NCBI GenBank assembly: GCA_036166415.1
Contig: JAYZHP010000081.1
Coordinates: forward strand, 688-64,687
DNA from: Fidelibacterota bacterium
GTDB lineage: Bacteria > Fidelibacterota > Marinisomatia > Marinisomatales > TCS55
Reading direction: 5' to 3'
Length of the DNA: 64,000 nucleotides
Part shown: positions 51,202 to 64,000 of the stretch, one piece after another
Layout: each line of letters starts with the position of its first letter
How positions within the stretch are numbered: position 1 is the stretch's first letter
Position numbers and translations under genes: made by a program
The notes under the pieces: generated by a model
Told to the model about the DNA's origin: nothing
Seen by the model: only the letters and a program-made list of their open reading frames with translations
Database searches by the model: none

Positions 51202-51720
51202 TCAATAAAGCATTAAATAAATTACAACACCTGTAACCGACACGTAGAGCCAAAGTGGAAGAGTAATTTTTGCAATTTTTCTATGCAAAACAAGATTATC
51301 TGTCCATCCTCTATAAAGAGTCAGTAAAGCCAGCGGTATAATGATTGTTGCTAAGATAATATGCGTCAATAGGATGATATAATAAATTAGTGTATACTCA
51401 CCTAGATATTGCTTAGGCCCCGCTTTAAACCAGTGGTAAATAATGTAGCTGACCAGAAATGCAGCTGAGGTTGCAAACGAAACAAGCATTACATTTTTAT
51501 GCAACCTACGTTTTTTCTGAATAATTAATATATACCCAAGAACAAGTAGCGCAGTGGTTAAAGCATTTAGGCTTGCATTGACTGTTGGTAGTGCAGAGAC
51601 ATCTAATGAACCATTAATTCCATCCGGCCTTGGGCCCAAAATAAGAAAGGCCACTGCCCCAGAAATAATTATGGATACTATATAAATTATCTTTATCCAA
51701 AAATTATCTTTCCTATTCAT
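51202..51720 (-). CDS. DUF420 (CtaM-like) membrane protein
   Basis: 172 aa, 4 TM segments, in the last position of the oxidase biogenesis operon. It overlaps the sco stop by 4 nt. Confidence 0.6.
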   Translation of the reverse strand: MNRKDNFWIKIIYIVSIIISGAVAFLILGPRPDGINGSLDVSALPTVNASLNALTTALLVLGYILIIQKKRRLHKNVMLVSFATSAAFLVSYIIYHWFKAGPKQYLGEYTLIYYIILLTHIILATIIIPLALLTLYRGWTDNLVLHRKIAKITLPLWLYVSVTGVVIYLMLY

Positions 51721-52301
51721 GAATTCTGCTTGAGTAAGCTATTAATGTCTTTTTTAAGTTTTTTCATATCTTCGGTTTTCATGCCATTGTAGTACGCTCT
51801 AATCATGCCCGACCTATCAACTAAAGCAAATTTCTCACTATGAAAAATTATGTCTTCATAATCCCCTATCTTAAACCCGTCTTTGATTACCTCTTGAACA
51901 GTACCTTCTTCGCCAGTTAAAAAATACCATCGATTAGTATCTGCATTATATTGTGCGGCGTATTTTGTTAAGACCTCTGGTGTGTCATATTCAGGATATA
52001 CTGAAATTGAAACCAATCTTACATCATCATTTTGTTTATATTTTTTATGAATAATATTCATGTTCCCAGTCATGATTGGGCATGCCATATTGCAGGTTGT
52101 AAAAATAAAATCAGCAACCCAAACCTTACCTTTTAAGCTAGTCAGAGTTATAGTTTCTCCTTCGCTATTAACGAATTCAAAGTCAGGAATATTTCCTATT
52201 ACAGGTAGGCTATTCTCTGGTTCAGAGTTTTTTAATAAATATGTAGCAATTAACAATGCGGCTATGGCTATATATATTTTTATTCTTGTGTTTTGATTCA
52301 T
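51717..52301 (-). CDS. SCO1/SenC copper chaperone
   Basis: Membrane anchor plus a thioredoxin fold with FTTCNMACP (CxxxCP). Confidence 0.85.
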   Translation of the reverse strand: MNQNTRIKIYIAIAALLIATYLLKNSEPENSLPVIGNIPDFEFVNSEGETITLTSLKGKVWVADFIFTTCNMACPIMTGNMNIIHKKYKQNDDVRLVSISVYPEYDTPEVLTKYAAQYNADTNRWYFLTGEEGTVQEVIKDGFKIGDYEDIIFHSEKFALVDRSGMIRAYYNGMKTEDMKKLKKDINSLLKQNS

Positions 52302-53185
52302 GATGTAACCCCTAAATCAATTATGATAATTAATAATAATATTGGTAAATAAAAAACAGACGCTTTAAGCAAAAGTAATGCGCTTTTATTTGATCTATTT
52401 CGAGCTAATGGCAATGCAGAAATAAAAAAAGCAGAAGTTATGATAATCACGCCAAACAAATATATTATTCCAAGAGACCCCTGAATAACTGGAATAATTG
52501 AAATTGGAATCATCAAAAGCAAATGCCAAAATATTTGACGCATAGTACGATTACCTTCTGGCTCTAATACGGGAAGCATTTTCAAATTTGCTTCAGCATA
52601 ATCTTTTCTACACATCCATGCTATCGCATAAAAATGAGGATGTTGCCAAAGATACATTATTCCAAATAATACCCATGCCATTGATCCAATAGTTCCGGTA
52701 GATGCTGTCCAGCCCCCAATTATTGGTAATGCTCCGGGTATTGATCCAATCGATGTATTAAGCCATGTAACTTTTTTTAATGGTGTGTATATCACTATAT
52801 ATAAAAATGAAGTAAGAAGCGCTATAAATCCCGTAAGAATATTAATCAATGAGACAAGAAGCATGGTTCCAAATAAGACCATCAGGACTCCATAGATCAT
52901 GACCTCGGATGGAGAAATTAAGCCTGCGGGCAAGGGTCTATTTTTTGTTCGCATCATTCGTTTATCGGTTTCACGTTCCATATAATGATTAAGTGCGCCA
53001 GAACCAGAAGCAGTCATGGCAGTCCCAATGAGGGTAATCAGTAAATGCTTCCAAGAGCTTATTCCCTCAGCACCAAGATAATAACCAAGAAAAGTAGCAA
53101 TCAAAACAAGCGATAGTATATTCAGTTTGCTCAGCTCTAAATAAATACTAATCTTTGATTTGGCTTTTTCTTTAACAAGCTTCAA
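52298..53185 (-). CDS. ctaB: protohaem IX farnesyltransferase (haem O synthase)
   Basis: UbiA-family protein with NHYMERETDKRMMRTKNRPLP, and its place next to ctaA. Confidence 0.9.
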   Translation of the reverse strand: MKLVKEKAKSKISIYLELSKLNILSLVLIATFLGYYLGAEGISSWKHLLITLIGTAMTASGSGALNHYMERETDKRMMRTKNRPLPAGLISPSEVMIYGVLMVLFGTMLLVSLINILTGFIALLTSFLYIVIYTPLKKVTWLNTSIGSIPGALPIIGGWTASTGTIGSMAWVLFGIMYLWQHPHFYAIAWMCRKDYAEANLKMLPVLEPEGNRTMRQIFWHLLLMIPISIIPVIQGSLGIIYLFGVIIITSAFFISALPLARNRSNKSALLLLKASVFYLPILLLIIIIDLGVTS

Positions 53186-54168
53186 AAGCTTAATTCCTTT
53201 AATTTATTTGACTGAGTAAATATTACAAACATTGTACAGCAACCAAGTAGTGCAGCCCCATTGACTACATGGAAACTGGCTATATAGGGCATACGCTCAG
53301 ATAAAACAGTTACGGCTCCTAGGATAATTTGAATAAATAAAATTATTGAAATCATAATCAACATCTTTAATTCCATAGAATTCTTTTTAACAATTTTCCC
53401 AAATTTATAAATAAAGAAAGACAATACTAAAGTGATTATAATAGCACCCAAACGGTGTAAAAAATGAATGGTGACTTGCCACTTTGAAACCATATCTAAA
53501 TTCTTATCAAATAACTCAGCATTAATATTATCTATCATAATATCAGAAAAAGTAGGAATCCACATACCCCCCATTGTAGGAAAATCAGGAATGGCAAGAC
53601 CGGATGCTGTATGTCGCATTAAAGCGCCTAAAATTAATTGAATATAAACCATGGCAGTTAGTATTACTGCACCACGTTTAATAGATAATGGATAATTAAT
53701 ATTGTTTCTATGGCTTCTAATAGATGAAAGGCTGTAAGCAATAAATATCGTTGAAACAAAAAATGTCTGCGCAAGTATTCCATGAACAATTGAAATTGGT
53801 GCCGGTAAAAAGAATAGCACTGTCATTCCACCAAGCAGTCCTTGAATGACAACTAATAAAAGAGCAAAAAAACCCATTTTTTTTATCCATAATGGTTGAT
53901 TTGAAAAACCTAATAAAATTGACTGAACTAAAGTCAAAAACCCAACTATGGTTGCAAAAAGTCTATGGCCATGTTCATAAAATATTCCACCAACCATTTC
54001 AGAAACTGGAAAGGAAAACATTTGTTTGCCATAGGATGTTGGCCAGTCTGGCACAGATAATCCGACTTCATGACTTTTAACTAATGCGCCGACAAAAATT
54101 AAAAATAATGTAGATATTACAACTAACTTTGACAAGCGCCTAAGGCTGGAGTCAACTAATGATTGCAT
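53182..54168 (-). CDS. ctaA: haem A synthase (COX15/CtaA)
   Basis: 328 aa, 8 TM segments, with conserved His pairs (YEHGHRLFA, FLHRLGA), positioned between coxB and ctaB. Confidence 0.8.
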   Translation of the reverse strand: MQSLVDSSLRRLSKLVVISTLFLIFVGALVKSHEVGLSVPDWPTSYGKQMFSFPVSEMVGGIFYEHGHRLFATIVGFLTLVQSILLGFSNQPLWIKKMGFFALLLVVIQGLLGGMTVLFFLPAPISIVHGILAQTFFVSTIFIAYSLSSIRSHRNNINYPLSIKRGAVILTAMVYIQLILGALMRHTASGLAIPDFPTMGGMWIPTFSDIMIDNINAELFDKNLDMVSKWQVTIHFLHRLGAIIITLVLSFFIYKFGKIVKKNSMELKMLIMISIILFIQIILGAVTVLSERMPYIASFHVVNGAALLGCCTMFVIFTQSNKLKELSF

Positions 54169-54250: not shown

Positions 54251-55126
54251 CTACCATTCATCATCACCCCAATCATCTTCATCTTCTGCTTCTTCAAGTA
54301 AAAACTCCTGCTCTGAATCCATCCATTGTTTATATCCATCTTCATCAAAAACTGTCAGATAACCTCTCATTTGAGCATGCTGTGCCCCACATAATTGAGC
54401 GCAAGCAATTTCAAATCCCTTATATCGATCAAGTGGCTTTTTTTCTTCGAAATCCTCTCGCGCAGTGCCTTTTATTGTTTTTAAAAAGTCATCTGTGGTC
54501 ATTGTTGCTTCAAACCAGACCGGAATTGTCATTCCAGGAATCGCATCTTGAGAGACTCTAAGCTCGGGGAGTTTAAAATTATGAATAACATCTCTTGATG
54601 ATAGCAAGATATTTATTGGTGTATTCACAGGAATTTTTAATTGGTTCTGCAAAACAACATCATCCTTAGCATATTCATCAGTGCGATCAAGTCCAATGAA
54701 GTTTTGTTCTTCATCATTAACTAAATCAATATTGGTTGAACCGAAAACATTATCTGGTCCTGGGTAATGTATATTCCAGGCAAATTGCTGAGCGACTACT
54801 CTAATCTGAATAGAATCAATTGTATCGGGAACATCATTTACCCTGCTCGCCCATATAGGAAATGCAAAACCTATCAATAATACTACTTCAATTAATGCAA
54901 CTGCTACTTCAGCATATGTAGAATAGTGATTTTTCACTCCATGGTAGTCTGCTTTTGGCTGTCTTGATGAACGAAATCTAATAAGCGTATATATAAAATA
55001 AGCTCCCCAACCAACAAATAGTATCAGCATCAACCAGTGAACCAGTGAAATTACATTATCAATAGCAGGTCCTTGCGTTGAAGCAGAAACAGTTGGTAGT
55101 CCTAATTTTCTAAGTAATTCTAACAT
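54251..55126 (-). CDS. ctaC: cytochrome c oxidase subunit II (CuA, no fused cytochrome c domain)
   Basis: Two N-terminal TM segments. CuA ligands are in DVIHNF and CAQLCGAQHAQM. It ends in the acidic tail EEAEDEDDWGDDEW. Confidence 0.9.
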   Translation of the reverse strand: MLELLRKLGLPTVSASTQGPAIDNVISLVHWLMLILFVGWGAYFIYTLIRFRSSRQPKADYHGVKNHYSTYAEVAVALIEVVLLIGFAFPIWASRVNDVPDTIDSIQIRVVAQQFAWNIHYPGPDNVFGSTNIDLVNDEEQNFIGLDRTDEYAKDDVVLQNQLKIPVNTPINILLSSRDVIHNFKLPELRVSQDAIPGMTIPVWFEATMTTDDFLKTIKGTAREDFEEKKPLDRYKGFEIACAQLCGAQHAQMRGYLTVFDEDGYKQWMDSEQEFLLEEAEDEDDWGDDEW

Positions 55127-55138
55127 TAGGCTATAGCC

Positions 55139-55381
55139 TTAAATATTCTTTTTTCTTTTTGATAAGGTTTTTGCATACTCTTTAGCTCTTTTATTCAAAA
55201 CATAAATAAATGATACAAAGCTACTTAATACTCCTCCGGTAATTGTAAGCATAGTAATAATAGCCAAATTCATTCCTTGCGTTGCCTTTGCATTTGGGTC
55301 GCCAAAACACGTGGAGCATGCATAAGCAATTTCAGGTACAACAATAATAATGGCTAGCGTAACTACAATTGTTCTAATCAT
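55139..55381 (-). CDS. 80-aa membrane protein with a periplasm-side CxxC motif (hypothetical)
   Basis: The layout is TM1, ACSTCFGDPNAK, TM2, then a basic tail. It sits 12 nt upstream of coxB. Confidence 0.5.
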   Translation of the reverse strand: MIRTIVVTLAIIIVVPEIAYACSTCFGDPNAKATQGMNLAIITMLTITGGVLSSFVSFIYVLNKRAKEYAKTLSKRKKNI

Positions 55382-55383
55382 AA

Positions 55384-55557
55384 CTAAATCGTTCTAAACT
55401 TCTTATATACTTGTATTCCATAATAGACTAAAGCAACACCCCCTACAAATGATCCAATGCTAATCATAGGTGATCTATTGACCCCCCAAAAACCTACACC
55501 CAATGAAAGACAGGTTGATAAAATTATAAATAAAATATGAAAAGATTTAATTGACAT
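55384..55557 (-). CDS. 57-aa two-TM micro-protein (hypothetical oxidase-associated)
   Basis: My translation is MSIKSFHILFIILSTCLSLGVGFWGVNRSPMISIGSFVGGVALVYYGIQVYKKFRTI. Its ATG is 2 nt after the subunit IV stop, and its TAG is 2 nt before the next ATG. Confidence 0.45.
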   Translation of the reverse strand: MSIKSFHILFIILSTCLSLGVGFWGVNRSPMISIGSFVGGVALVYYGIQVYKKFRTI

Positions 55558-55559
55558 AC

Positions 55560-55856
55560 TTAATAGATCCTGGCTTGAGCTAGCATTGTACCAATAGGTA
55601 AAATAATTAAAATTAAAAAAGCAACAGCAGTTGCGATTAAAGTCCAGTATATAGTGGTTTTCTCATCAATTAAATGCATGAAGTAACACGCCACCAAAGA
55701 TGCCTTGACGCTTGCAACAAGCAAGCCAAGAGCTATTCCTGATTTTACACCAATATCTAGATAAGAGATAGCTACCGTCACTACAGTTAAACATGCTAGG
55801 GCAACAAAAACTATTACATATGTCTTTATATGATGTTTTACTTCTTCTGGTGTCAT
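55560..55856 (-). CDS. cytochrome c oxidase subunit IV (prokaryotic COX4 family)
   Basis: Starting at MTPEEVKHHIKTYVIVFVALACLTVVTVAISY gives a 98-aa, 3-TM protein, 10 nt after the coxC stop. The longer ORF-track start would overlap coxC. Confidence 0.65.
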   Translation of the reverse strand: MTPEEVKHHIKTYVIVFVALACLTVVTVAISYLDIGVKSGIALGLLVASVKASLVACYFMHLIDEKTTIYWTLIATAVAFLILIILPIGTMLAQARIY

Positions 55857-55866
55857 AAATAATTCC

Positions 55867-56457
55867 TCATAATAAATATAGAACTGGGAAAAGAAAAATC
55901 CAGACCAAATCAACAAAATGCCAATACAGACCAACTATTTCTATTCTATTTGTAAATCGTTCAGGATCTGTATTCCACATTTTTGAACCTGGACCAAAAA
56001 AATAACCGATTACAATAATTCCTCCAATTACATGGAGAACATGCAAACCTGTCATTGTAAAATAAATACCTAAAAAATTATTCGTGCTAGGATAATAATG
56101 ATGGCTGAACTTTGCTGTATATTCAAAATATTTAATTACCAAAAACCCAAAAGCAAAAAGCAAAGTAACACCAGAGTAAAGTTTAAATTTCTTAAAATCA
56201 TTTAATTTTAATGATGCCCAACTCATGACCATGGTTACTGATGATGAGATTAAGAATAAAGTGTTTAAGGTAGCTAAGGGTACATCAAGATATTTTGTTC
56301 CAGGAGGCCAATTATCTACACCAGTCCTTAAAAAGATATAGGCAGAAAATAATCCACCAAATAACATGACTTCGGATGCTAGAAAAAGCCATATTCCTAA
56401 TTTCCCATTGTATAATCCTGTATCAGGACGCTCTTTAACATTAAATGGAATATCCAT
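55867..56457 (-). CDS. ctaE: cytochrome c oxidase subunit III
   Basis: 196 aa, 5 TM segments, with FFGPG...GLYWHFVDLVWIFLFPVLYL at the C-terminus. Confidence 0.9.
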   Translation of the reverse strand: MDIPFNVKERPDTGLYNGKLGIWLFLASEVMLFGGLFSAYIFLRTGVDNWPPGTKYLDVPLATLNTLFLISSSVTMVMSWASLKLNDFKKFKLYSGVTLLFAFGFLVIKYFEYTAKFSHHYYPSTNNFLGIYFTMTGLHVLHVIGGIIVIGYFFGPGSKMWNTDPERFTNRIEIVGLYWHFVDLVWIFLFPVLYLL

Positions 56458-56462
56458 ACTAA

Positions 56463-58175
56463 TTAACCTTTTTGACTTTGTGGTAAGAAATCGTTTTTTT
56501 GATTAGGAACGCTATATTCATACGGGCCTCGATATACTGTAGGGACTTTTTCAAAATTGCCGTGCCCTAAAGGCGGTGATGTTGTATCGGTCCAATCTAT
56601 AGTCGTCGCACCCCATGGGTTTGATTCACCTGTTTTTTCAGATCGAAGACTAATTATCATATTTACAATAAAGAACAACTGGGCAACACCTAATAGCCAT
56701 GCAGATATTGTCATAAATTCATTTAAATGAATTACTCCAGCAGCATGCGCATAAGTTTCTCCTCCATCATTCATTCTCCTTGAAAGACCTGCTAATCCTT
56801 GAATAAACATAGGCATAAAGACGCCGTTCATAAATATAAATGAGAAATAAAAATGAAGTTTTCCAAGGGTTTCATTCGTTCGCTTTCCTGTAATTTTTGG
56901 AAACCAATAATAAATTCCTGCAAATAAGGCAAAAATTGTTCCTGGGGCTACTACATAGTGAAAATGACCAATTACATAATAAGTATCATGAAGATGTATA
57001 TCAGCTGCAGCTAAACCAAGAGGAAGGCCTGTTAATCCACCAATTCCAAACATTGGCAAAAAACCAAGGGCGAACAGCATTGGAGTATTAAATCTGATTG
57101 AACCACCCCAAAGTGAGAGTAATAACGCGGTTAAAATCACAACAGAAGGAATTGATATAATCATTGTTGTTGTTTGAAAGAAAGCTCCAATTGTAGTACC
57201 CATTCCAGTAAGGTACATGTGATGGGCCCAGACTATAAACGACATAAATCCTAGAAATACCATCGCATAAACCAATGATCTATAACCTTTAATAGGTTTT
57301 CTTGTATTGTTAGCAATCACTTCCGTAACAATACCAAAAGCAGGAAGAATCAAGACATATACCTCAGGATGTGCTAAAAACCAGAATAAGTGCTGCCAAA
57401 GTAAGGGGCTTCCACCGCCTGCATAAGGACCTCCGCCGCTTACTACTAATCCGCTTGGCATAAAAAAACTTGTTCCGGCTAAGCGATCCATTAATTGTAG
57501 AATACCTGCAGCTTCCAATGGAGGGAATGCTAAAAGTAATAAAAAGGCTGTAATAAACTGAGTCCATACAAAAATAGGTAATTTCATCCAGGTCATTCCA
57601 TCGGCACGTAGCTGAATAACAGTTACCAAAATGTTAACCGATCCTAATAATGAAGATGTTATGAGCATAACCATTCCCCATAACCAGACAGTTTGCCCCA
57701 TTGTTGCAATATTTGATAAAGGAGGATATGATGTCCATCCAGAGTTTGCTGCTCCACCTGGCACAAAAAACCCAATTACCATAATAACCGATCCTAAAAA
57801 ATACATCCAATAGGATGCAGCATTAAGTTTAGGGAAGGCCATATCGATTGCCCCAATTTGCAATGGGACAAAATAGTTTCCAAATGCACCAAAAGCTAAT
57901 GGAACTACACCTAAAAATATCATTATTGTTCCATGCATTGCACCCATAGAATTATATGTTTCAGGTGGAAGAGCTCCATCTGGACCTAGAAGACTTCCGA
58001 TCAATGGGATTGGTGTTCCTGGGTAGGCAATCTGATACCGCATAATGGAAATAAGAACAAATCCAAACAGAAGCCAAACCAGAGAGGTAATTCCATATTG
58101 AATACCAATTACTTTATGGTCAGTTGACCAAATATATTTAGTCCAAAAACTCTGCTTATGATGTCCTTCGCTCAT
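56463..58175 (-). CDS. ctaD: cytochrome c oxidase subunit I (A-family haem-copper oxidase)
   Basis: Contains WFLAHPEVYVLILPAFG (Glu of the D-channel type), VWAHHMY, and GHFHYV haem ligands. Confidence 0.95.
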   Translation of the reverse strand: MSEGHHKQSFWTKYIWSTDHKVIGIQYGITSLVWLLFGFVLISIMRYQIAYPGTPIPLIGSLLGPDGALPPETYNSMGAMHGTIMIFLGVVPLAFGAFGNYFVPLQIGAIDMAFPKLNAASYWMYFLGSVIMVIGFFVPGGAANSGWTSYPPLSNIATMGQTVWLWGMVMLITSSLLGSVNILVTVIQLRADGMTWMKLPIFVWTQFITAFLLLLAFPPLEAAGILQLMDRLAGTSFFMPSGLVVSGGGPYAGGGSPLLWQHLFWFLAHPEVYVLILPAFGIVTEVIANNTRKPIKGYRSLVYAMVFLGFMSFIVWAHHMYLTGMGTTIGAFFQTTTMIISIPSVVILTALLLSLWGGSIRFNTPMLFALGFLPMFGIGGLTGLPLGLAAADIHLHDTYYVIGHFHYVVAPGTIFALFAGIYYWFPKITGKRTNETLGKLHFYFSFIFMNGVFMPMFIQGLAGLSRRMNDGGETYAHAAGVIHLNEFMTISAWLLGVAQLFFIVNMIISLRSEKTGESNPWGATTIDWTDTTSPPLGHGNFEKVPTVYRGPYEYSVPNQKNDFLPQSQKG

Positions 58176-58228
58176 GATTACCTTTAATTAAATATTTAGG
58201 GGCTATCGTGTGATATGTTTTTGAGTTC

Positions 58229-58244
58229 AATTATAACTATAATT
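58229..58244. promoter_or_regulatory. perfect 7-2-7 palindrome carrying TATAAT on both strands in the divergent cox/cupredoxin promoter region
   Basis: AATTATA-AC-TATAATT, read directly from the sequence. The minus-strand TATAAT lies about 55 nt upstream of the ctaD ATG. The region is AT-rich, so a chance occurrence is plausible. Confidence 0.25.
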
Positions 58245-58389
58245 AAATAAAATTTACGGTTTCAATGAAGTATCTACAAAGTTGATTTTACTAATTTTTT
58301 ATTATGCTTTAGTTTGTTGTTTTAGTTTTGTTACTTTATCTAAATTTAATTATATAGTACAGTTAATATTTTAATCATTCGGAGAAATA

Positions 58390-59097
58390 ATGAACAAAAT
58401 TATCATCAATATTATAGTCATCTCTTTGGGGGCAAATATTTTATTTGCAGGAGAAGTTAAAGGTAGCGTGAAATATGTAGGCAAACCACCAAAGGCGAAG
58501 CGCTTAAGAATGGATGCTGATCCTGTATGTGCAGCCTCCCACCAGGAAGCTGCAAAAGCTGAATCTTTTGTTGTTGATGCAAACGGAAATCTTGCTAATG
58601 TTATCGTTTATCTTAAAAATGTTAAATACGATGGAAAGGCTCCAGCAAAAGCAAAAACTCTTGATCAGGCAGGTTGTGTTTATACTCCCCACGTACTAGG
58701 TGTTCAAGCAGGTCAGCCAATTAAAATTCTTAATAGTGATGCAACCATGCATAACATTCACGGCTTACCAAAAGTAAATAGAGAATTTAATTTTGGTATG
58801 CCTAAGACATTGAAAGAGAAGACCATCACTTTTGATAAAGCAGAAGATGTATTTGTGGTAAAATGCGATGTACATCCATGGATGAAAAGTTATACTCAGG
58901 TGTTTGATCATCCATATTTTTCTGTGACAGATAAAAGTGGAAATTACAGTATTCCCAATGTCCCTGATGGAACTTATGAAATTGTCGCATGGCAAGAAAA
59001 ATTTGGAAGCAAAAGGACTCTTTCTCAAAGCGTGACTGTTAAATCCGGTAAAGCAGTAGTCAACTTTGAATTTAGTCGACCAAAACCAAAGAAATAG
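58390..59097 (+). CDS. cupredoxin-like type-1 copper protein with C-terminal carboxypeptidase-regulatory-like (Ig-like) domain
   Basis: It has a signal or anchor peptide. Candidate copper ligands are His in ATMHNIH and C-x2-H-x2-M in KCDVHPWM. GNYSIPNVPDGTYEIVAWQEKFG is typical of the CarboxypepD_reg fold. A GGAG Shine-Dalgarno sequence lies 7 nt upstream. Confidence 0.75.
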   Translation: MNKIIINIIVISLGANILFAGEVKGSVKYVGKPPKAKRLRMDADPVCAASHQEAAKAESFVVDANGNLANVIVYLKNVKYDGKAPAKAKTLDQAGCVYTPHVLGVQAGQPIKILNSDATMHNIHGLPKVNREFNFGMPKTLKEKTITFDKAEDVFVVKCDVHPWMKSYTQVFDHPYFSVTDKSGNYSIPNVPDGTYEIVAWQEKFGSKRTLSQSVTVKSGKAVVNFEFSRPKPKK

Positions 59098-59124
59098 TAA
59101 TTTAAAGCTACTTAATTCAATAAT

Positions 59125-59154
59125 AAAAAAGCCTCGTTAGTGCGAGGCTTTTTT
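59125..59154. terminator. bidirectional intrinsic terminator between convergent genes
   Basis: AAAAAAGCCTCG-TTAGTG-CGAGGCTTTTTT: a GC core stem flanked by an A run and a T run, lying between the stops at 59097 (+) and 59203 (-). Confidence 0.7.
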
Positions 59155-59202
59155 ATTGCAAATAGTAATTAATTAAAATGGATTATTATGATCATGTAAG
59201 AA

Positions 59203-62200
59203 TTACCAATCGTCATCTCCCCAATCATCCTCTTCTTCTATGATAAATCCATATCCTTCGGAATTAAGATGACGCCTTACTATATCTGATACATCCTGCT
59301 TTCCCCCCATACCCCACATCCAATCAATAAGTGCCTTATAAAGCAAGGTACTATCAGTGCTAATTTTAGCAACATCCCTACCCCATACTTCTCTAATTGA
59401 ATTTATCGGTTCTTCAGTTGGTATGTAAGGCGCTGGCATTTTAGTTCCAGGCATTACATCTTGAGGGTTGATAAACCATTCTACCAGCCATTCGGGTCGC
59501 AAACGCTCCTTAGTTAATGTTAAATTTGGTGCCCATGTTAAAGCTGCCTGTTTTGGTTTTTCTGAACCGTAAAAATGACAATTATTACACGCACCCATTT
59601 CAGCAACTCTCTCTCCTGCTTTAAATGAGGAAGAATTCATAACAAATTGATGAGCATCTTCGTATTTTAAATCTTGACCGTCTTTGTATTGAAAATAAGA
59701 TATAACTTTATTCCACTCTTCATCTGTATAGTCAAAACTTGGCATTCTCACTTGAAGGTGAGGTCTCACCATACTAATATCCTTGAACCAATCAAGTAGC
59801 CATTGTGGCTGTGTTTTTCTTCCTTGAGTATTTAATAAGGGTGGGCTAAAGCTTTGCACAATGCTCATATCCTCAGAATTTGTCTCATCAGCAACTACTT
59901 TGATCCATTCGGCTACTGATGGCCAAATTGCTCCCCCTTCACCATCTAGCTTATGACAACCAAGGCAATTATTTGTATGTATGAATTGCTCTCCTTTGGC
60001 AATAGCTAAATACGTTGGTGATTTCTCTGGAAGCTTAGTCTGAGGAATTTCATCCTTTACGAGTCCCATAATTAACGTAACAAGGGACTCTATTTCTTTA
60101 CGTTCTAATCCAAAGTGCGGCATTCTAGACTTCTCTAGAGGCTTTAATTCTTTAATTCCAACCGAATGATCTTCATTTGGAATTAAATCAAATTTTTCTG
60201 GTTGATCGATTTTATTATAAAACCAATCCCATTTAGTATGGGGTATTTCATCATGCCAGAACCCAAAATCTAACTTTGAAATAAGCTTACTTCCTTCATG
60301 ATTGAGAGCAATCCCTATTGGTTTTTTATCTTCAAATCCTTGAATATTATGACAGGAATAACATCCATAATGACCAATTAAATTTTCTCCAGAATAAACA
60401 AGTTTTTCCTTTATTGTCATATCTTCAAGTAGGTTTTTTACCTGAATAGTTGAATTTAATTGGGATAAAAAGTCAGATGATATTTCATTCAAGATATTTT
60501 CATTAACTGAAGGAACAGGTGTAGAGTCAAATTTTTCACTTTTATCAGCTATTAAGTAGCTAGTAATATCGCTTGCCTCTTGATCAGTCAAGCGCAGATT
60601 AGGCATCTTTGTTCCAGGGTGATAGCTATAAGGGTTTTTCAGCCAATTGAATAGCCATTTTGCGTTTGTTTTAGAACCAATACCTATCAGGTTTGGTCCT
60701 TGTTCTTTTCTTAGGTTTTGTAAAGAGGGTTCATAGCTTGGGTCTGCTTCGGGTTGAATTTGGTGGCAACCCATACAGCCAAGAGACGAAACTAGTAATG
60801 CGCCATTTTCTGGATCACCAATTTGATTATTGCTTTTATCATATTTAGAAGATTTAGCAAATAAATATTCGGTCATCGCTAAGACTTCTTGTTCAGTTCT
60901 AAGTAAATCCTTAGGGCTGCTGTTATTTCCTTTCTTAAAGAAATGAGGCATCCAGGTGTTATGTCGAAATGCTCTAGGCTCCATAATCCAGCGATATGTC
61001 CAATCTTTAGTAGTTTTTGAGGCAACCTTATACAGACTAGGACCAGCTTTAGGATAATCTTCTCCCCACCGATCCATGCTATGACAAGTATAGCATCCAG
61101 CTTTCTCAAAAGTTGACATTCCAAGACTAAGTTTTTCAGCGCCCTTAATTGGCATATTGTCACTATGGCATTTGAAACATCCGGCCTCTGCATATTGTGT
61201 TGGCAACATTTTATTACCCCAATAATGCAAAGCTTCCCAGCCATACTTATCATGCCAATCTTTAGCTTGTTCTTCATTTTTTGGCATATGACCTGCAGAA
61301 ATAAAATCTGTACCTCTTCCTCGTCCTGCATGGCAAGTTGTACATCCATATTCACTTGTTGGATGAGGCGAACTTCCACCTACAAACTCTTCTAACCTTG
61401 GGTGGGTGGTGTATGGTTGCGGTGCATCTTCAAATCCTTTTTTATCAATACCCACATGACATGTTATGCATCTATCTACTTTAGGCATACCCATATATAC
61501 AAGATCATCCTCAAGGTCATTTACCACTGTCTGCTTTACTTCATAGTAAGGGTCAATAAAGTCTATAACGGGAACATCTCGAACGATATTGGCTATTTTA
61601 TTGGCAAAAGTCATAGCTTCAGGATCTAATTTTGACAACTGTCTTTCTAATAATTGTTTTTCACTACCTATGGCATATAGCGCGTCATTCGTTTGTTTAA
61701 TGAATGAATTGATTACTTTCAATTCTTGATCAAGACTATCAACCAAGGACTGATTTTTTTCAGCAATTAAAAATGCGGCATCTGTTTTTTTCTTAAGTCT
61801 ATTGTAATTCTTTTTTGCTTTTTCAAGATCGCCATGTCCGAATTGAGATTCTTCTAAAGTATATTTTGCAGCATCGAAGTCCGCCTTAGCAAATTGATAA
61901 TCTTGATTTGACTGATAAAGAGTAGCATCCAAATCATTGATTTGCGCTTGAATTCTTTCAACCTTATCAGATTGATTTACTAATTCAGTTTGTCTTTTTT
62001 CTAATTCACTTAATAGATTTTGATAGTCAGAATTTTCAGAAAGAATTAATTCTTGATTAGTTAGTTTCTGCTTAACATTTTCAATCTCCAATTTTCTAAA
62101 TTCATACTGATACTTTTTCCATGGTCGATTATAGTCATCTGCAAATGTAATAATCCAAAAAGCGGTAAACAGTAAGCTAGATATAGCAAACCACTTATTG

Positions 62201-62244
62201 AGTTTCAATACATTATAATATCTTTCTTCTTGGTTAATCGGCAT
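59203..62244 (-). CDS. membrane-anchored octahaem c-type cytochrome with coiled-coil stalk
   Basis: One N-terminal TM segment is followed by ~165 aa of heptad-rich coiled coil. There are eight CxxCH motifs, at aa 259, 301, 356, 384, 490, 628, 760 and 886. The last five sit in repeated class-I-like modules (CxxCH...GPxL...W..W...MP). The protein ends in the acidic tail EEEDDWGDDDW. Confidence 0.85.
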   Translation of the reverse strand: MPINQEERYYNVLKLNKWFAISSLLFTAFWIITFADDYNRPWKKYQYEFRKLEIENVKQKLTNQELILSENSDYQNLLSELEKRQTELVNQSDKVERIQAQINDLDATLYQSNQDYQFAKADFDAAKYTLEESQFGHGDLEKAKKNYNRLKKKTDAAFLIAEKNQSLVDSLDQELKVINSFIKQTNDALYAIGSEKQLLERQLSKLDPEAMTFANKIANIVRDVPVIDFIDPYYEVKQTVVNDLEDDLVYMGMPKVDRCITCHVGIDKKGFEDAPQPYTTHPRLEEFVGGSSPHPTSEYGCTTCHAGRGRGTDFISAGHMPKNEEQAKDWHDKYGWEALHYWGNKMLPTQYAEAGCFKCHSDNMPIKGAEKLSLGMSTFEKAGCYTCHSMDRWGEDYPKAGPSLYKVASKTTKDWTYRWIMEPRAFRHNTWMPHFFKKGNNSSPKDLLRTEQEVLAMTEYLFAKSSKYDKSNNQIGDPENGALLVSSLGCMGCHQIQPEADPSYEPSLQNLRKEQGPNLIGIGSKTNAKWLFNWLKNPYSYHPGTKMPNLRLTDQEASDITSYLIADKSEKFDSTPVPSVNENILNEISSDFLSQLNSTIQVKNLLEDMTIKEKLVYSGENLIGHYGCYSCHNIQGFEDKKPIGIALNHEGSKLISKLDFGFWHDEIPHTKWDWFYNKIDQPEKFDLIPNEDHSVGIKELKPLEKSRMPHFGLERKEIESLVTLIMGLVKDEIPQTKLPEKSPTYLAIAKGEQFIHTNNCLGCHKLDGEGGAIWPSVAEWIKVVADETNSEDMSIVQSFSPPLLNTQGRKTQPQWLLDWFKDISMVRPHLQVRMPSFDYTDEEWNKVISYFQYKDGQDLKYEDAHQFVMNSSSFKAGERVAEMGACNNCHFYGSEKPKQAALTWAPNLTLTKERLRPEWLVEWFINPQDVMPGTKMPAPYIPTEEPINSIREVWGRDVAKISTDSTLLYKALIDWMWGMGGKQDVSDIVRRHLNSEGYGFIIEEEDDWGDDDW

Positions 62245-62255
62245 ATATCAATAAA

Positions 62256-63374
62256 TTAAAAATTGAAAAAGAACTCAGGCATCGAAATAATATATTTTAG
62301 GTTAAAGAACCAGCGAAGATACATTTTTACAGGGAGTAATGCACCAAAAAGCATCAACACTACAAAAATAGTATATCTGGCACTACCTAGCCTATCGTAA
62401 AAACTTTTTAATAGCGTCTTTGCAAGCAAAGGAGGCAAGACAGCAAAAATAATAAATACTATAAATAGGCCTGGCGCTTCTCTCAGTAAAATATTAGATG
62501 GTAGACCAGTATTAAGCCATTTAACATAAAAAAGTTCGGATAGATTAACATTGGTTAGAGCCTCAAGTCTATGGGGGTCCCAGTACTCAAATGGGCCAAA
62601 AAATCCCCAATTCGGACCTCTTAAAAACGTACCAATAACGATTAAAACATTCCACAATACAAGCCATCCAAAAAGATAGATTGAAACAGAAAGCATCCTA
62701 TTTTTGTAACTAAAATAGCCCGAGCCATTTGGATCAGAATCAATATAGGGGATTGCCATTAAACCAATAATAATAAATGTAGGTAACACGACACCAGCAT
62801 ACCATGGGTCAAAATATACAAGCATTTCCTGTAGGCCTAAAAAATACCAGGGAGCTTTTGCTGGGTTTGGAGATTCGGATGGATTGGCTGGCTGTTCTAA
62901 TGGAGCTGGTAGTCCAATTGACCAAATCAACATGAATGCAGAAAATAAAATCAATGAGATAAGCTCTACATATACTAAATCCGGCCAAACAAGTACCTTG
63001 TCATTAGGAGCTTCATAATGCTCATCAACAGGTTTTCCTTGATCAATAAGCTTATCATTTTTATAAGCTTGATGCATACTTAGCCAAGTAAAAAATATCA
63101 ATAAAATAATAAGGCCCGATATTGGAACATTATCAGGTTTTAAAACAATTTTCTTAAAATTATCATCACCAAGTCCAAATATAAAAAAGGCAATTGTAAC
63201 TGATGTCATTACAATTAAACCTTTCATCGTCCATAGCTTATCTAGCCCAAGTTTTTTGTGGATCTTATAAAACCAATTTGAAGGTGGAAAAACAAAAGGG
63301 AATCCTACAATAACCGCAGTAACCAGTATAGTAGGATTAGAAATATAATTGATTAATGACTTAAAACCTTCCAT
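62256..63374 (-). CDS. cytochrome b C-terminal domain / b6f subunit-IV-like protein, expanded (372 aa)
   Basis: The core VWPDLVYVE...NPAKAPWYFLGLQEMLVY aligns with the PetD / cyt b C-terminal region including the PEWY position. Extra TM helices are present on both sides. Confidence 0.75.
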   Translation of the reverse strand: MEGFKSLINYISNPTILVTAVIVGFPFVFPPSNWFYKIHKKLGLDKLWTMKGLIVMTSVTIAFFIFGLGDDNFKKIVLKPDNVPISGLIILLIFFTWLSMHQAYKNDKLIDQGKPVDEHYEAPNDKVLVWPDLVYVELISLILFSAFMLIWSIGLPAPLEQPANPSESPNPAKAPWYFLGLQEMLVYFDPWYAGVVLPTFIIIGLMAIPYIDSDPNGSGYFSYKNRMLSVSIYLFGWLVLWNVLIVIGTFLRGPNWGFFGPFEYWDPHRLEALTNVNLSELFYVKWLNTGLPSNILLREAPGLFIVFIIFAVLPPLLAKTLLKSFYDRLGSARYTIFVVLMLFGALLPVKMYLRWFFNLKYIISMPEFFFNF

Positions 63375-63379
63375 AGCAT

Positions 63380-64000
63380 TTAAACTGGAGTAGAGATACC
63401 CCCGTCTTTACGTATTCTCCAAAAATGAACAGCCATGAATATCATAATAATAAATGGTAGACCTATGCAATGAAGAACATAAAATCTTAACAGCGTTGCT
63501 TCACCTAAAAATCTACCGCCAATCAATCCAAACCTTGCATCACTTGCCTTTGTAATAAAATTGATATCTCCAATAGCAAGCAATGATGATCCTGGACCTT
63601 CTGCTCCTAGAAAAGGGGTTGCTCCTGCCATATTTGAGCCAACTGCAATAGCCCATATTGCTAATTGATCCCAAGGAAGTAAGTATCCGGTAAAACTTAA
63701 TAGTAATGTCAAAACAAGCAGAATGACACCAACCGCCCAATTGAATTCCCTTGGTGGTTTATATGATCCTGTCATAAATACTCTAAACATATGCAACCAC
63801 ACAGTAATTACCATAGCATGCGCACCCCATCTATGAATTTCTCGCATTATTCCAAATGGAACCTGTTCAGTCAAATCCATAATATCAGTATATGCGTATT
63901 CAATTGTGGGCCTATAATAGAACATCAAAAGTATTCCAGAGATTGTCAAAATTAGAAAAATAAAAAATGATAACCCTCCCATGCACCAAGTGAATTTGAG
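63380..64000 (-). CDS. cytochrome b6-like N-terminal cytochrome b (partial, N-terminus beyond window end)
   Basis: [56 protein letters not shown] and [12 protein letters not shown] match cytochrome b6/b. The frame stays open to position 64000. Confidence 0.85.

What the first reader, a model, noticed from the sequence alone, without database searches (positions are those of the whole stretch)
54254..59238. CoxB and the octahaem cytochrome end in the same acidic Trp-containing tail, DDWGDD(D/E)W
CoxB ends ...LLEEAEDEDDWGDDEW*. The octahaem protein ends ...FIIEEEDDWGDDDW*. I verified both in the DNA, at 54254-54295 and 59206-59238. No other protein in the window ends this way. Codon usage differs between the two tails, which argues for selection on the peptide rather than a copied DNA segment.

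Both C-termini are periplasmic by the established topology of CuA and c-type haem domains. A shared tail on the electron donor and the acceptor subunit suggests three possibilities:
- a common docking motif, for example for the Lys-rich cupredoxin encoded exactly between the two genes;
- a supercomplex-tethering element;
- a recognition tag for a maturation or sorting factor.
Basis: seen in the sequence. Interest (0 to 1): 0.7.

Follow-up and report, generated by a model that had tools for sequence, protein, structure and literature searches.

The report
Complementary charged tails on respiratory partners
In Marinimicrobia, an abundant group of ocean bacteria, the two membrane complexes that pass electrons towards oxygen both end in the same short acidic, tryptophan-bearing tail, and the small copper protein encoded between them ends in a lysine tail, so the tails most likely let one electron carrier be caught by both partners.

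Summary
CoxB ends ...DDWGDDEW and the octahaem cytochrome of the Rieske/cytochrome b complex ends ...DDWGDDDW. These are the only two such C-termini in the window.

- **Conservation:** the tail is kept in about 96% of 185 CoxB and 90% of 166 octahaem sequences from Marinimicrobia (SAR406), even where the protein bodies share only 34-39% identity.
- **Third tail:** the syntenic two-domain, amicyanin-like cupredoxin is basic (pI 9.5) and ends in a conserved lysine tail (RPKKK).
- **The three tails travel together:** outgroups with the same gene order but no lysine tail lack the acidic tail on the octahaem, and their CoxB ends only in D-x-F-W-N.
- **Fusion:** in three independent contigs the cupredoxin is fused to CoxB, and no acidic tails are present there.

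My best reading is that the acidic Trp tails are short docking motifs that capture the basic cupredoxin shuttle at both donor and acceptor. This rests on comparative evidence only; binding is untested. It looks like a new variant of electrostatic redox-partner docking, and I found no published description in the held paper library.

The parts
54251..55126 (-). coxB: haem-copper oxidase subunit II, with two N-terminal TM helices and a CuA domain but no cytochrome c domain
   Evidence: Pfam COX2 and NCBIfam CoxB. The CuA ligand block CAQLCGAQHAQM can be read in the translation. The periplasmic domain has net charge -16 before the tail.
54254..54289 (-). Acidic Trp tail of CoxB, AEDEDDWGDDEW, followed directly by the stop codon
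   Evidence: 178 of 185 distinct orthologues match W-x-[DE]2-4-W. Residues 281-291 have pLDDT below 50 and follow a helix at 262-285, but the whole model is low-confidence.
59203..62244 (-). Octahaem c-type cytochrome subunit of the Rieske/cytochrome b complex: N-terminal TM anchor, a stretch of about 200 aa with weak coiled-coil-type matches, then eight CxxCH motifs
   Evidence: It lies directly downstream of the split cytochrome b genes, and this order is kept in related loci.
59206..59238 (-). Acidic Trp tail of the octahaem cytochrome, EEEDDWGDDDW, followed directly by the stop codon
   Evidence: 150 of 166 distinct orthologues end in W. The tail is absent from outgroup octahaem proteins that have the same synteny.
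58390..59097 (+). Two-domain cupredoxin: signal peptide, an amicyanin-like type 1 copper domain, then a CarboxypepD_reg-like beta-sandwich. It is the presumed soluble electron shuttle.
   Evidence: The profile matches amicyanin over residues 88-167 with the H/C/H/M ligands aligned. H121, C159, H162 and M165 are invariant in 36 sequences. Pfam finds CarboxypepD_reg and fn3_3. The mature protein has pI 9.46 and net charge +11. The gene is syntenic in about 49 genome loci.
59074..59094 (+). Basic C-terminal tail of the cupredoxin, SRPKPKK (family consensus F-x-F-x-R-P-K-K-K)
   Evidence: One search gives the translation. 116 of 120 homologue clusters and 167 of 169 distinct sequences end in a lysine tail. 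The distant homologue in L125 ends in ten lysines.
62256..63982 (-). Split cytochrome b: the b6-like N-terminal part (63380-63982) and the subunit-IV-like C-terminal part (62256-63374). This is the quinol-oxidising partner of the octahaem subunit.
   Evidence: Pfam Cytochrome_B and Cytochrom_B_C. In related loci a 190-191-aa ORF sits just upstream; I read it as the Rieske subunit from its position only (not family-scanned), and it has no acidic tail.
55139..58175 (-). coxA (56463-58175), coxC (55867-56457), a coxD-like gene (55560-55934) and an 80-aa CxxC membrane ORF (55139-55381): the rest of the oxidase operon
   Evidence: ORF list and conserved order in related loci. In related contigs the precomputed Pfam hits are COX1, COX3 and COX4_pro.
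51202..54168 (-). Oxidase assembly genes: ctaA (53182-54168), ctaB (52298-53185), SCO1/SenC (51717-52301) and DUF420 (51202-51720)
   Evidence: Pfam and conserved order in related loci.

Best explanation
The window holds the aerobic respiratory superoperon of a Marinimicrobia (SAR406) bacterium. It encodes a Rieske/cytochrome b complex whose cytochrome subunit is a membrane-anchored octahaem protein, an aa3-type oxidase whose CuA subunit lacks a fused cytochrome c, and, between them, a secreted two-domain type 1 copper protein.

I propose that the acidic, Trp-containing C-terminal tails of the octahaem subunit (donor) and of CoxB (acceptor) are flexible short linear docking motifs. They capture the same basic, lysine-tailed cupredoxin by long-range electrostatics, with the Trp residues and the free C-terminal carboxylate adding specificity. 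This would hold the shuttle near both redox sites, acting as a fly-casting leash or a 'fuzzy' tether.

**Shown here:**
- The tails exist, are strongly conserved, and are nearly exclusive to these two proteins.
- The cupredoxin carries a conserved tail of opposite charge.
- The three tails co-occur phylogenetically.
- The globular domains are also charge-complementary.
- The cupredoxin is fused to CoxB in some relatives.

**Inferred, not shown:**
- The cupredoxin is the shuttle.
- The tails are disordered and periplasmic.
- The tails physically bind the cupredoxin.
- This binding speeds or secures electron transfer.
For: 1. **Conservation far above that of the protein bodies.** 96% of CoxB and 90% of octahaem sequences end in W. 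The tail is kept at 34-39% body identity.
2. **Specificity.** A relaxed scan of 1549 ORFs in the 118 loci gave 64 CoxB, 45 octahaem and 3 others.
3. **Opposite charge on the carrier.** The cupredoxin ends in a conserved [RK]P-x-KK(K) tail. It has net charge +11, against -24 for the CoxB periplasmic part and -33 for the octahaem periplasmic part, tails included.
4. **Co-occurrence in a sample not chosen by tails** (loci picked by cupredoxin core motifs).
   - All 18 loci with a true poly-lysine-tailed cupredoxin and a readable octahaem end have the acidic W tail on the octahaem.
   - All 10 such loci with a readable CoxB end have it on CoxB.
   - Seven outgroup loci with a non-lysine cupredoxin (L154, L157, L161, L168, L159, L187, L205) have no acidic tail on the octahaem; all but L168 also show cytochrome b beside it. 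Where a separate CoxB is present it ends only in D-x-F-W-N/G.
5. **Rosetta-stone fusion.** Three independent contigs encode a protein that is cupredoxin + linker + CoxB. Neither CoxB nor the octahaem has an acidic tail there.
6. **The whole charge system is amplified in the tail-bearing clade.** Cupredoxin median net charge is +6 against +1. The CoxB periplasmic domain without its last 12 residues is -11 against -4.
7. **A distant relative repeats the logic in another form.** In L125 the cupredoxin ends in K10 and CoxB ends in DSDDEEGW.
8. **No alternative carrier is visible.** No soluble cytochrome c gene lies in the window and CoxB has no cytochrome c domain.
9. **The principle is established.** Basic cytochrome c docks on acidic surfaces of both complex III and complex IV (PMC8361435).
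Against: - No physical or structural test of tail-cupredoxin binding was possible.
- The co-occurrence reflects one or a few evolutionary events, so the Fisher p values overstate independence.
- Acidic/aromatic C-terminal ends occur on CoxB of this clade in lineages where no lysine-tailed cupredoxin was seen nearby: L124 and L126, which has a roughly 100-aa acidic [WF]G-repeat extension. Short D-x-F-W-N ends occur in the outgroups. The CoxB tail may therefore have an older or broader role.
- A lysine tail could instead bind anionic lipids.
- The role of the Trp residues is not explained by charge alone.
- The cupredoxin's similarity to amicyanin is weak by score (E = 0.003; below the NCBIfam cut-off).
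Confidence: 0.55

Rival explanations
1. Supercomplex glue. The two tails bind basic patches on the partner complex or on a shared scaffold subunit, holding the Rieske/cytochrome b-octahaem complex and the aa3 oxidase together. Electrons then pass directly or over a very short path, and the cupredoxin's lysine tail is incidental or is only one of several ligands.
For: - Both carriers of the tail are subunits of membrane complexes encoded in one superoperon.
- III-IV supercomplexes with small periplasmic contacts are well known (PMC8361435).
- In the fusion lineages a cupredoxin tethered to CoxB must reach the octahaem, which implies the two complexes are close.
Against: - Two identical acidic tails cannot bind each other.
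- No conserved basic periplasmic tail or patch other than the cupredoxin's was found in the cluster. The ORF read as the Rieske subunit ends neutrally and the Lys-rich end of the 80-aa ORF is probably cytoplasmic.
- The tails co-vary with the cupredoxin's lysine tail rather than with the presence of the complexes, which also exist in the outgroups without tails.
Confidence: 0.2
2. Non-specific physicochemical role. The tails act as highly charged 'bristles': they bind divalent cations, keep the periplasmic domains soluble or away from the anionic membrane, or simply add negative surface potential in a high-salt periplasm, with no defined binding partner.
For: - The length and exact sequence of the acidic run vary between lineages: EEEEEEW, DEWDEEWEEEEWQN, and tandem DDDWGDDE repeats.
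- The globular domains are also more acidic in the tail-bearing clade.
- D/W-rich low-complexity segments occur in an unrelated secreted protein in L116.
Against: - The aromatic residue at the extreme C-terminus is kept in 90-96% of sequences, and the W-G spacing is kept in most. A pure charge bristle would not require either.
- The tail is restricted to the two redox partners of one carrier.
- The tail is gained and lost together with the carrier's lysine tail.
Confidence: 0.12
3. Recognition tag for a periplasmic maturation, sorting or quality-control factor, for example a PDZ-domain protease or chaperone that reads C-terminal aromatic residues, or a cofactor-insertion factor.
For: - The strictly C-terminal aromatic residue with a free carboxylate is the kind of signal read by PDZ or carboxylate-clamp domains (general knowledge).
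- Both proteins need periplasmic cofactor insertion (CuA, haem c).
Against: - Only two substrates exist, and their cofactors and maturation pathways are unrelated.
- No candidate reader or processing enzyme is conserved in the neighbourhood, which holds only CtaA, CtaB, Sco and DUF420.
- The tail has no hydrophobic anchor of the kind seen in known C-terminal sorting signals.
- No Pfam or NCBIfam match covers the tail.
- The tail is absent from outgroup orthologues that need the same maturation.
Confidence: 0.07

Closest known systems
Electrostatic docking of basic cytochrome c on acidic surfaces of complex III and complex IV, including 2D diffusion along III-IV supercomplexes (PMC8361435)
   Same: One small, positively charged carrier is recognised by negatively charged sites on both its donor and its acceptor. 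The charge complementarity here has the same sign and the same logic.
   Different: The carrier here is a two-domain cupredoxin rather than cytochrome c. The acidic element is a short, nearly identical, presumably disordered C-terminal peptide with conserved Trp residues on both partners, not a folded surface patch. The carrier also has a matching lysine tail.
Acidic accessory elements of bc1 complexes: the mitochondrial hinge protein QCR6/UQCRH and the acidic domain of Paracoccus denitrificans cytochrome c1 (my own knowledge; no supporting paper was found in the library)
   Same: Both are highly acidic and probably flexible, sit on the periplasmic or intermembrane-space side of the cytochrome subunit of a quinol:carrier oxidoreductase, and have been proposed to influence carrier binding or complex association.
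   Different: Those are a separate subunit, or a domain I recall as being on the order of 100 residues or more, and they occur only on the complex III side. Here an 8-12 residue motif is duplicated on complex IV as well, contains invariant Trp, sits at the extreme C-terminus, and has no sequence relationship to them.
caa3-type oxidases and other covalently tethered carriers (cytochrome c fused to subunit II; membrane-anchored cytochrome cy or c552)
   Same: They solve the same problem, keeping the carrier at the oxidase. Relatives of this system do so by fusing the cupredoxin to CoxB.
   Different: In the window the link would be non-covalent, through complementary tails. In the relatives the fused carrier is a cupredoxin at the N-terminus of CoxB, not a cytochrome c at its C-terminus.
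C-terminal acidic-tip motifs read with the free carboxylate, such as the bacterial SSB tail DDDIPF or the Hsp70/90 EEVD motif (my own knowledge)
   Same: The architecture of the signal is the same: an acidic run ending in a hydrophobic or aromatic residue at the very C-terminus, used as a portable docking peptide for several contexts.
   Different: Those systems are cytoplasmic and unrelated to electron transfer. No binding pocket has been identified here. This is a resemblance in design, not membership.
Cupredoxin shuttles: amicyanin (MADH to cytochrome c551i), auracyanin (ACIII to reaction centre or oxidase), and plastocyanin
   Same: The ligand set is type 1 copper H/C/H/M, and the cupredoxin domain aligns to amicyanin. 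The presumed role is that of a periplasmic one-electron shuttle next to a quinol oxidoreductase.
   Different: This protein has an extra C-terminal CarboxypepD_reg-like beta-sandwich and a poly-lysine tail. Similarity to amicyanin is weak (E = 0.003). Its partners carry matching acidic tails, which as far as I know has not been described for those systems.

Membership tests
Haem-copper oxidase subunit II (CoxB, CuA type) | COX2 periplasmic cupredoxin domain carrying the CuA ligand block H...C-x-E/Q-x-C-x3-H-x2-M | tested here: met
   Pfam PF00116 at 4.6e-10, above its cut-off. The block CAQLCGAQHAQM is in the translation, and C242, C246, H250 and M253 are invariant in 29 sequences. The TIGR02866 score of 117 is below its 147.7 cut-off, so this is a divergent member.
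Haem-copper oxidase subunit II (CoxB, CuA type) | Two N-terminal transmembrane helices that place the C-terminal domain, and hence the tail, in the periplasm | tested here: inconclusive
   Two long helices at 20-53 and 70-94 appear in a low-confidence AlphaFold model. The topology is inferred from family knowledge, and no topology predictor was available.
Multihaem cytochrome subunit of a Rieske/cytochrome b complex | Multiple CxxCH haem-c sites, a membrane anchor, and a gene adjacent to cytochrome b (and Rieske) | tested here: met
   There are eight CxxCH motifs and cytochrome c domain hits. The gene lies directly downstream of split cytochrome b. In related loci a 190-191-aa ORF sits upstream of cytochrome b; I read it as Rieske from position only, without a family scan.
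Type 1 (blue) copper cupredoxin, amicyanin/plastocyanin-like | His, Cys, His, Met ligand set with C-x2-H-x2-M spacing in a cupredoxin fold | tested here: met
   MHNIH...KCDVHPWM aligns to amicyanin PHNVH...CTAHPFM. H121, C159, H162 and M165 are invariant in 36 sequences.
Type 1 (blue) copper cupredoxin, amicyanin/plastocyanin-like | Significant sequence or fold similarity to characterised cupredoxins | tested here: inconclusive
   The profile against PDB amicyanin gives E = 0.003-0.01. NCBIfam amicyanin scores 18.9 bits against a cut-off of 110. Pfam Copper-bind is found only for the L125 homologue, at 0.0096. The Foldseek search with the two-domain model (pLDDT 66) gave no useful cupredoxin match.
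Type 1 (blue) copper cupredoxin, amicyanin/plastocyanin-like | Binds copper and shuttles electrons between the two complexes | not testable with these tools
   The role is inferred from synteny, from fusion to CoxB in relatives, and from the lack of a cytochrome c carrier gene in the window.
Known C-terminal protein-sorting signals (PEP-CTERM, GlyGly-CTERM, LPXTG, T9SS C-terminal domain and similar) | A signature motif followed by a hydrophobic helix and basic residues, or a folded domain of about 80 aa; many substrates per genome; a dedicated sorting enzyme | tested here: not met
   The tail is 8-12 purely acidic/aromatic residues ending at the stop codon. Only two protein families carry it. 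No Pfam or NCBIfam match covers it. No sortase-like gene is in the conserved neighbourhood.
Acidic hinge protein / acidic cytochrome c1 domain of bc1 complexes | Homology to QCR6/UQCRH or to the Paracoccus c1 acidic domain | tested here: not met
   No such family was hit by Pfam or NCBIfam for either protein. The element is far too short. The analogy is functional only.
Carboxylate-clamp type C-terminal docking peptides (SSB-Ct-like design) | An acidic run ending in an aromatic or hydrophobic residue at the extreme C-terminus | tested here: met
   W is the last residue in 96% of CoxB and 90% of octahaem sequences, and 181 of 185 and 155 of 166 have at least 6 acidic residues among the last 12.
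Carboxylate-clamp type C-terminal docking peptides (SSB-Ct-like design) | A defined binding pocket on the partner that reads the terminal residue and carboxylate | not testable with these tools
No coordinates or contact maps were available.

The most novel reading that the evidence does not exclude
A three-way 'charge-zipper' system of short linear motifs operates in the periplasm. Near-identical acidic-aromatic C-terminal peptides on a complex III analogue and on complex IV both grip the lysine tail, or the adjacent beta-sandwich 'handle' domain, of a two-domain cupredoxin. This forms a dynamic, non-covalent tethered shuttle, a 'fuzzy supercomplex'. It may have evolved in a streamlined marine lineage to keep electron transfer efficient despite strong ionic screening. 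It would be functionally interchangeable with the covalent cupredoxin-CoxB fusion seen in relatives.
Probability: 0.35. Interest if true: 0.78.

Novelty: new variant of a known kind. Interest (0 to 1): 0.62.

Why it matters
Marinimicrobia (SAR406) are, to my knowledge, among the most abundant bacteria of the dark ocean and of oxygen-minimum zones, and they remain largely uncultured. How their respiratory chain is wired is known only from gene lists.

This finding matters for four reasons:
- **It nominates the electron carrier.** A copper protein rather than an iron protein would link the cytochrome b complex to the oxidase.
- **It gives a concrete, testable handle on recognition.** An 8-12 residue peptide can be synthesised for binding, pull-down and kinetic experiments without growing the organism.
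- **It would extend a principle if confirmed.** Periplasmic electron-transfer partners would be matched by portable short linear motifs on both donor and acceptor, not only by folded surface patches. That design principle could also be used in engineered electron-transfer chains.
- **It improves annotation.** The tails, together with the cupredoxin-CoxB fusions, help in identifying carriers in FCB-group genomes.

Tried and rejected
- **Monomer AlphaFold models.** CoxB reached mean pLDDT 55 and the cupredoxin 66. They are too weak to say more than that the CoxB tail is not confidently structured. The Foldseek search of the cupredoxin model against the PDB gave no useful match.
- **Context look-ups of tail-less CoxB relatives.** Most returned contigs too short to be informative: L119, L121 and L122. 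L123 shows a different operon type.
- **Literature.** Searches for the motif strings, for acidic C-terminal tails with cupredoxins, and for Marinimicrobia respiratory chains found no prior description. The search for the Paracoccus cytochrome c1 acidic domain found no usable paper.
- **DNA copy or gene conversion between the two genes.** The forced codon identity of D, E and W makes this untestable from the window alone. Conservation across deep lineages, with different flanking sequence, argues against a recent copy.
- **Calcium-binding DxDxDG-type motif.** I rejected this because the spacing does not fit (by inspection).
- **Sorting signal.** Rejected; see the membership test.
- **Exact-tail hits outside Marinimicrobia.** I treated these as background: a NusA-like protein in an Anaerolineaceae genome, a Streptomyces protein fragment, a Nitrosotalea protein, and two very short ORFs. 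The one exception is a NapC/NirT-like cytochrome, which is listed under things noticed.

Full report
**1.

CoxB (window 54251-55126, minus strand, 291 aa) ends ...EEAEDEDDWGDDEW-stop. The 1013-aa protein at 59203-62244 (minus strand) has eight CxxCH motifs and ends ...IIEEEDDWGDDDW-stop. A six-frame scan of all 8253 stop-to-stop segments of the window found no other acidic, Trp-terminated end. The DNA pattern for [DE][DE]WG[DE][DE][DE]W-stop occurs twice, against 0.00 expected from shuffles.

The eight shared codons differ at only 3 of 24 bases, and D, E and W leave little freedom.

**2. Organism and genes**

The window has 35% G+C. Its proteins match Marinimicrobia/SAR406, also named Neomarinimicrobiota or Fidelibacterota.

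On the minus strand the gene order is:
- split cytochrome b
- octahaem cytochrome
- (cupredoxin, on the plus strand)
- coxA, coxC, coxD
- an 80-aa CxxC membrane ORF
- coxB
- ctaA, ctaB, SCO1, DUF420

CoxB has the CuA ligand block but no cytochrome c domain. The octahaem protein has an N-terminal hydrophobic anchor, about 200 residues with weak coiled-coil-type matches, and then the haem domains. It is the only CxxCH protein in the window.

The 235-aa plus-strand protein has a signal-peptide-like N-terminus. Its next domain aligns to amicyanin, with the His/Cys/His/Met ligands aligned and invariant. A CarboxypepD_reg-like beta-sandwich follows.

**3. The tails are conserved and specific**

- Among 185 distinct CoxB sequences, 179 end in W and 178 match W-x-[DE]2-4-W.
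- Among 166 octahaem sequences, 150 end in W and 138 match.
- The tail persists where the bodies share only 38-39% (CoxB) or 34-37% (octahaem) identity with the window proteins.
It returned 108 in-frame tails: 61 CoxB, 40 octahaem and 7 others.
- Of those seven others, one is a lipoprotein in a high-GC relative (L018) and one is a NapC/NirT-like cytochrome in a gammaproteobacterial MAG (L082). The rest look like background: a NusA-like protein, a Streptomyces protein fragment, a Nitrosotalea protein of unknown location, and two very short ORFs.
- A relaxed scan of 1549 ORFs in the fetched loci gave 64 CoxB, 45 octahaem and 3 others.
- No Pfam or NCBIfam match covers the tail.
- The ORF upstream of cytochrome b, read as the Rieske subunit from position only, has no such tail.

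**4. New finding: the carrier has the opposite tail**

The cupredoxin is syntenic with coxA and the octahaem gene in about 49 genome loci. It ends in a conserved basic tail, F-x-F-x-[RK]-P-x-K-K(-K); in the window this reads FSRPKPKK. The tail is present in 116 of 120 homologue clusters and in 167 of 169 distinct sequences.

| Protein (window) | Net charge | Notes |
|---|---|---|
| Mature cupredoxin | +11 | pI 9.46 |
| CoxB periplasmic domain | -16, plus -8 from the tail | |
| Octahaem periplasmic part | -25, plus -8 from the tail | |

**5. A control not biased by tails**

I scanned metagenome contigs with cupredoxin core motifs (C[DN]VHPWM and the HNIH block). This gave 80 loci chosen without regard to tails.

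- Every locus with a true poly-lysine-tailed cupredoxin has the acidic W tail on the octahaem (18 of 18) and on CoxB (10 of 10).
- Seven outgroup loci (G+C 0.42-0.51) have cupredoxins ending in non-lysine sequences; all but L168 also show cytochrome b next to the octahaem. Their octahaem proteins end in neutral or basic Pro/Ala-rich sequence. Their CoxB ends only in D-x-F-W-N/G, or is fused as described in section 6.
- High-GC relatives likewise lack all three tails.
- Crude Fisher tests give p = 6e-4 and p = 2e-3. These count L157's weak 'KPSK' end as a lysine tail and L161's intermediate CoxB end as acidic, and lineages are not independent, so they count few evolutionary events.
- The whole charge system is amplified in the tail-bearing clade. 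Cupredoxin median net charge is +6 against +1. The CoxB periplasmic domain without its last 12 residues is -11 against -4.
- The form of the acidic tail drifts between lineages but stays acidic-aromatic and W-terminal: EEEEEEW, EDEDEDW, DDWDDEW, DEWDEEWEEEEWQN, and tandem DDDWGDDE repeats.
- A distant relative (L125) pairs a cupredoxin ending in ten lysines with a CoxB ending in DSDDEEGW.

**6. Rosetta-stone fusion**

Three independent contigs (L159, L187, L205) each encode one protein of 489-505 aa. It consists of the full two-domain cupredoxin, a linker of about 45 residues, and a complete CoxB. Pfam finds CarboxypepD_reg, COX2_TM and COX2 in it. The topology is coherent: signal peptide, periplasmic cupredoxin, two TM helices, periplasmic CuA domain.

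In these lineages neither CoxB nor the octahaem has an acidic tail. This supports a direct functional partnership between cupredoxin and CoxB. It also suggests that covalent tethering and complementary tails are alternative solutions to the same problem.

**7. Mechanism**

The best-supported reading is as follows. The acidic Trp tails are flexible docking peptides that attract and hold the basic, lysine-tailed cupredoxin at both the donor (octahaem) and the acceptor (CuA). This is analogous in principle to basic cytochrome c docking on acidic surfaces of complexes III and IV (PMC8361435).

- **Shown:** conservation, specificity, charge complementarity, co-occurrence and the fusion.
- **Inferred:** the shuttle role of the cupredoxin, periplasmic and disordered tails (the CoxB tail has pLDDT below 50, but in a weak model), physical binding, and a kinetic benefit.

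The conserved terminal Trp implies recognition beyond charge, but I cannot say how.

**8. Caveats and rivals**

- CoxB proteins of this clade often carry other acidic/aromatic ends, such as DPFW-like, GFE and NNDDW.
- One lineage has a roughly 100-aa acidic extension with DD[AG][WF]G repeats and no lysine-tailed cupredoxin nearby (L126).
- The CoxB tail may therefore elaborate an older feature.
- A supercomplex-glue role, a non-specific charge role and a maturation-tag role remain possible, in decreasing order of likelihood.

**9. Novelty**

Neither literature searches nor family libraries gave any prior description of the tail or of the triad. The principle of electrostatic partner docking is known. 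The implementation is, as far as I could find, undescribed: the same C-terminal short motif on donor and acceptor, a complementary lysine tail on a two-domain cupredoxin, and a fusion as the alternative. I class it as a new variant of a known kind.

Noticed in passing
L159 (ORF L159_15, 489 aa), L187 (L187_21, 490 aa), L205 (L205_33, 505 aa): Natural fusion proteins made of an N-terminal two-domain cupredoxin, a linker of about 45 aa, and a full CoxB (COX2_TM + COX2). This would be a copper-protein analogue of caa3 oxidases. I know of no described example. Each locus also keeps a free cupredoxin paralogue.
   Followed up: partly
window 55139-55381 (minus strand): An 80-aa ORF between coxD and coxB with a CxxC[FY]G motif (CSTCFG), predicted membrane-spanning and with a Lys-rich end. 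It is conserved in 42 related loci and in distant outgroups (L120, L121, L126). It has no Pfam or NCBIfam match. It could be a small oxidase subunit or a copper-handling factor.
   Followed up: partly
L082, ORF L082_7 (231 aa): A NapC/NirT-family pentahaem quinol dehydrogenase in a MAG labelled Oceanospirillum ends in KADDWGDDDW, the same tail. It lies next to a TAT-signal molybdopterin oxidoreductase, a ferredoxin-like protein and a dihaem cytochrome. This could be independent use of the motif on another periplasmic redox protein, or it could be chance.
   Followed up: partly
L126 8951-10000: This CoxB has a C-terminal extension of about 100 aa that is acidic and low in complexity. It contains repeated DD[AG][WF]G[DS]D units and ends in DDGWDDDSWGDF. 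The neighbouring 240-aa cupredoxin-like protein lacks copper ligands and a lysine tail.
   Followed up: no
L144 2966-3610 (also L145 and L155): A second oxidase operon whose subunit II has an internal EDEWEDEDDE segment followed by NPTRWGWAWKEAI. It sits beside a lysine-tailed cupredoxin paralogue (…FIRKQKKK). The acidic Trp motif is therefore not always at the extreme C-terminus.
   Followed up: partly
L014 7273-7887 and L038 253-567: In some lineages the octahaem tail is a tandem array, for example DDDWGDDEDDDWGDDEDDDWK. This suggests a multivalent version of the motif.
   Followed up: no
L013, L014, L036, L038, L120 (between the cupredoxin gene and coxA): In several lineages a small 4Fe-4S ferredoxin-like protein (88-108 aa) and a membrane protein of about 160 aa are inserted upstream of coxA. 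These genes are absent from the window.
   Followed up: no
window 59203-62244, residues about 45-270 of the octahaem protein: A long stretch lies between the N-terminal membrane anchor and the haem domains. It gives weak sub-threshold matches to coiled-coil proteins (SMC, ASRP). I know of no precedent among cytochrome subunits of bc-type complexes, and it is unexplained.
   Followed up: no
L018 1895-2452: A 185-aa predicted lipoprotein of unknown function, in a high-GC (0.59) genome labelled Neomarinimicrobiota, ends in EDDDDDWGDEDW. It is the only third protein with the exact tail seen in that phylum. It lies next to a huge T9SS-type surface protein.
   Followed up: partly
L116, ORF L116_17 (774 aa): A predicted lipoprotein with several D/W-rich low-complexity segments (WDDDGWDDDAWDDD..., ending WWGDDDDWWDDDIDWD). 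Acidic/Trp low-complexity sequence therefore also occurs in unrelated secreted proteins.
   Followed up: no
window 49431-51116 (minus strand): A GAF + HD-GYP-type (HD_5) protein lies immediately downstream of the oxidase assembly genes. The same position is kept in several related loci (L017, L021, L030, L045, L060, L111), which hints at a regulatory link to the respiratory cluster.
   Followed up: no
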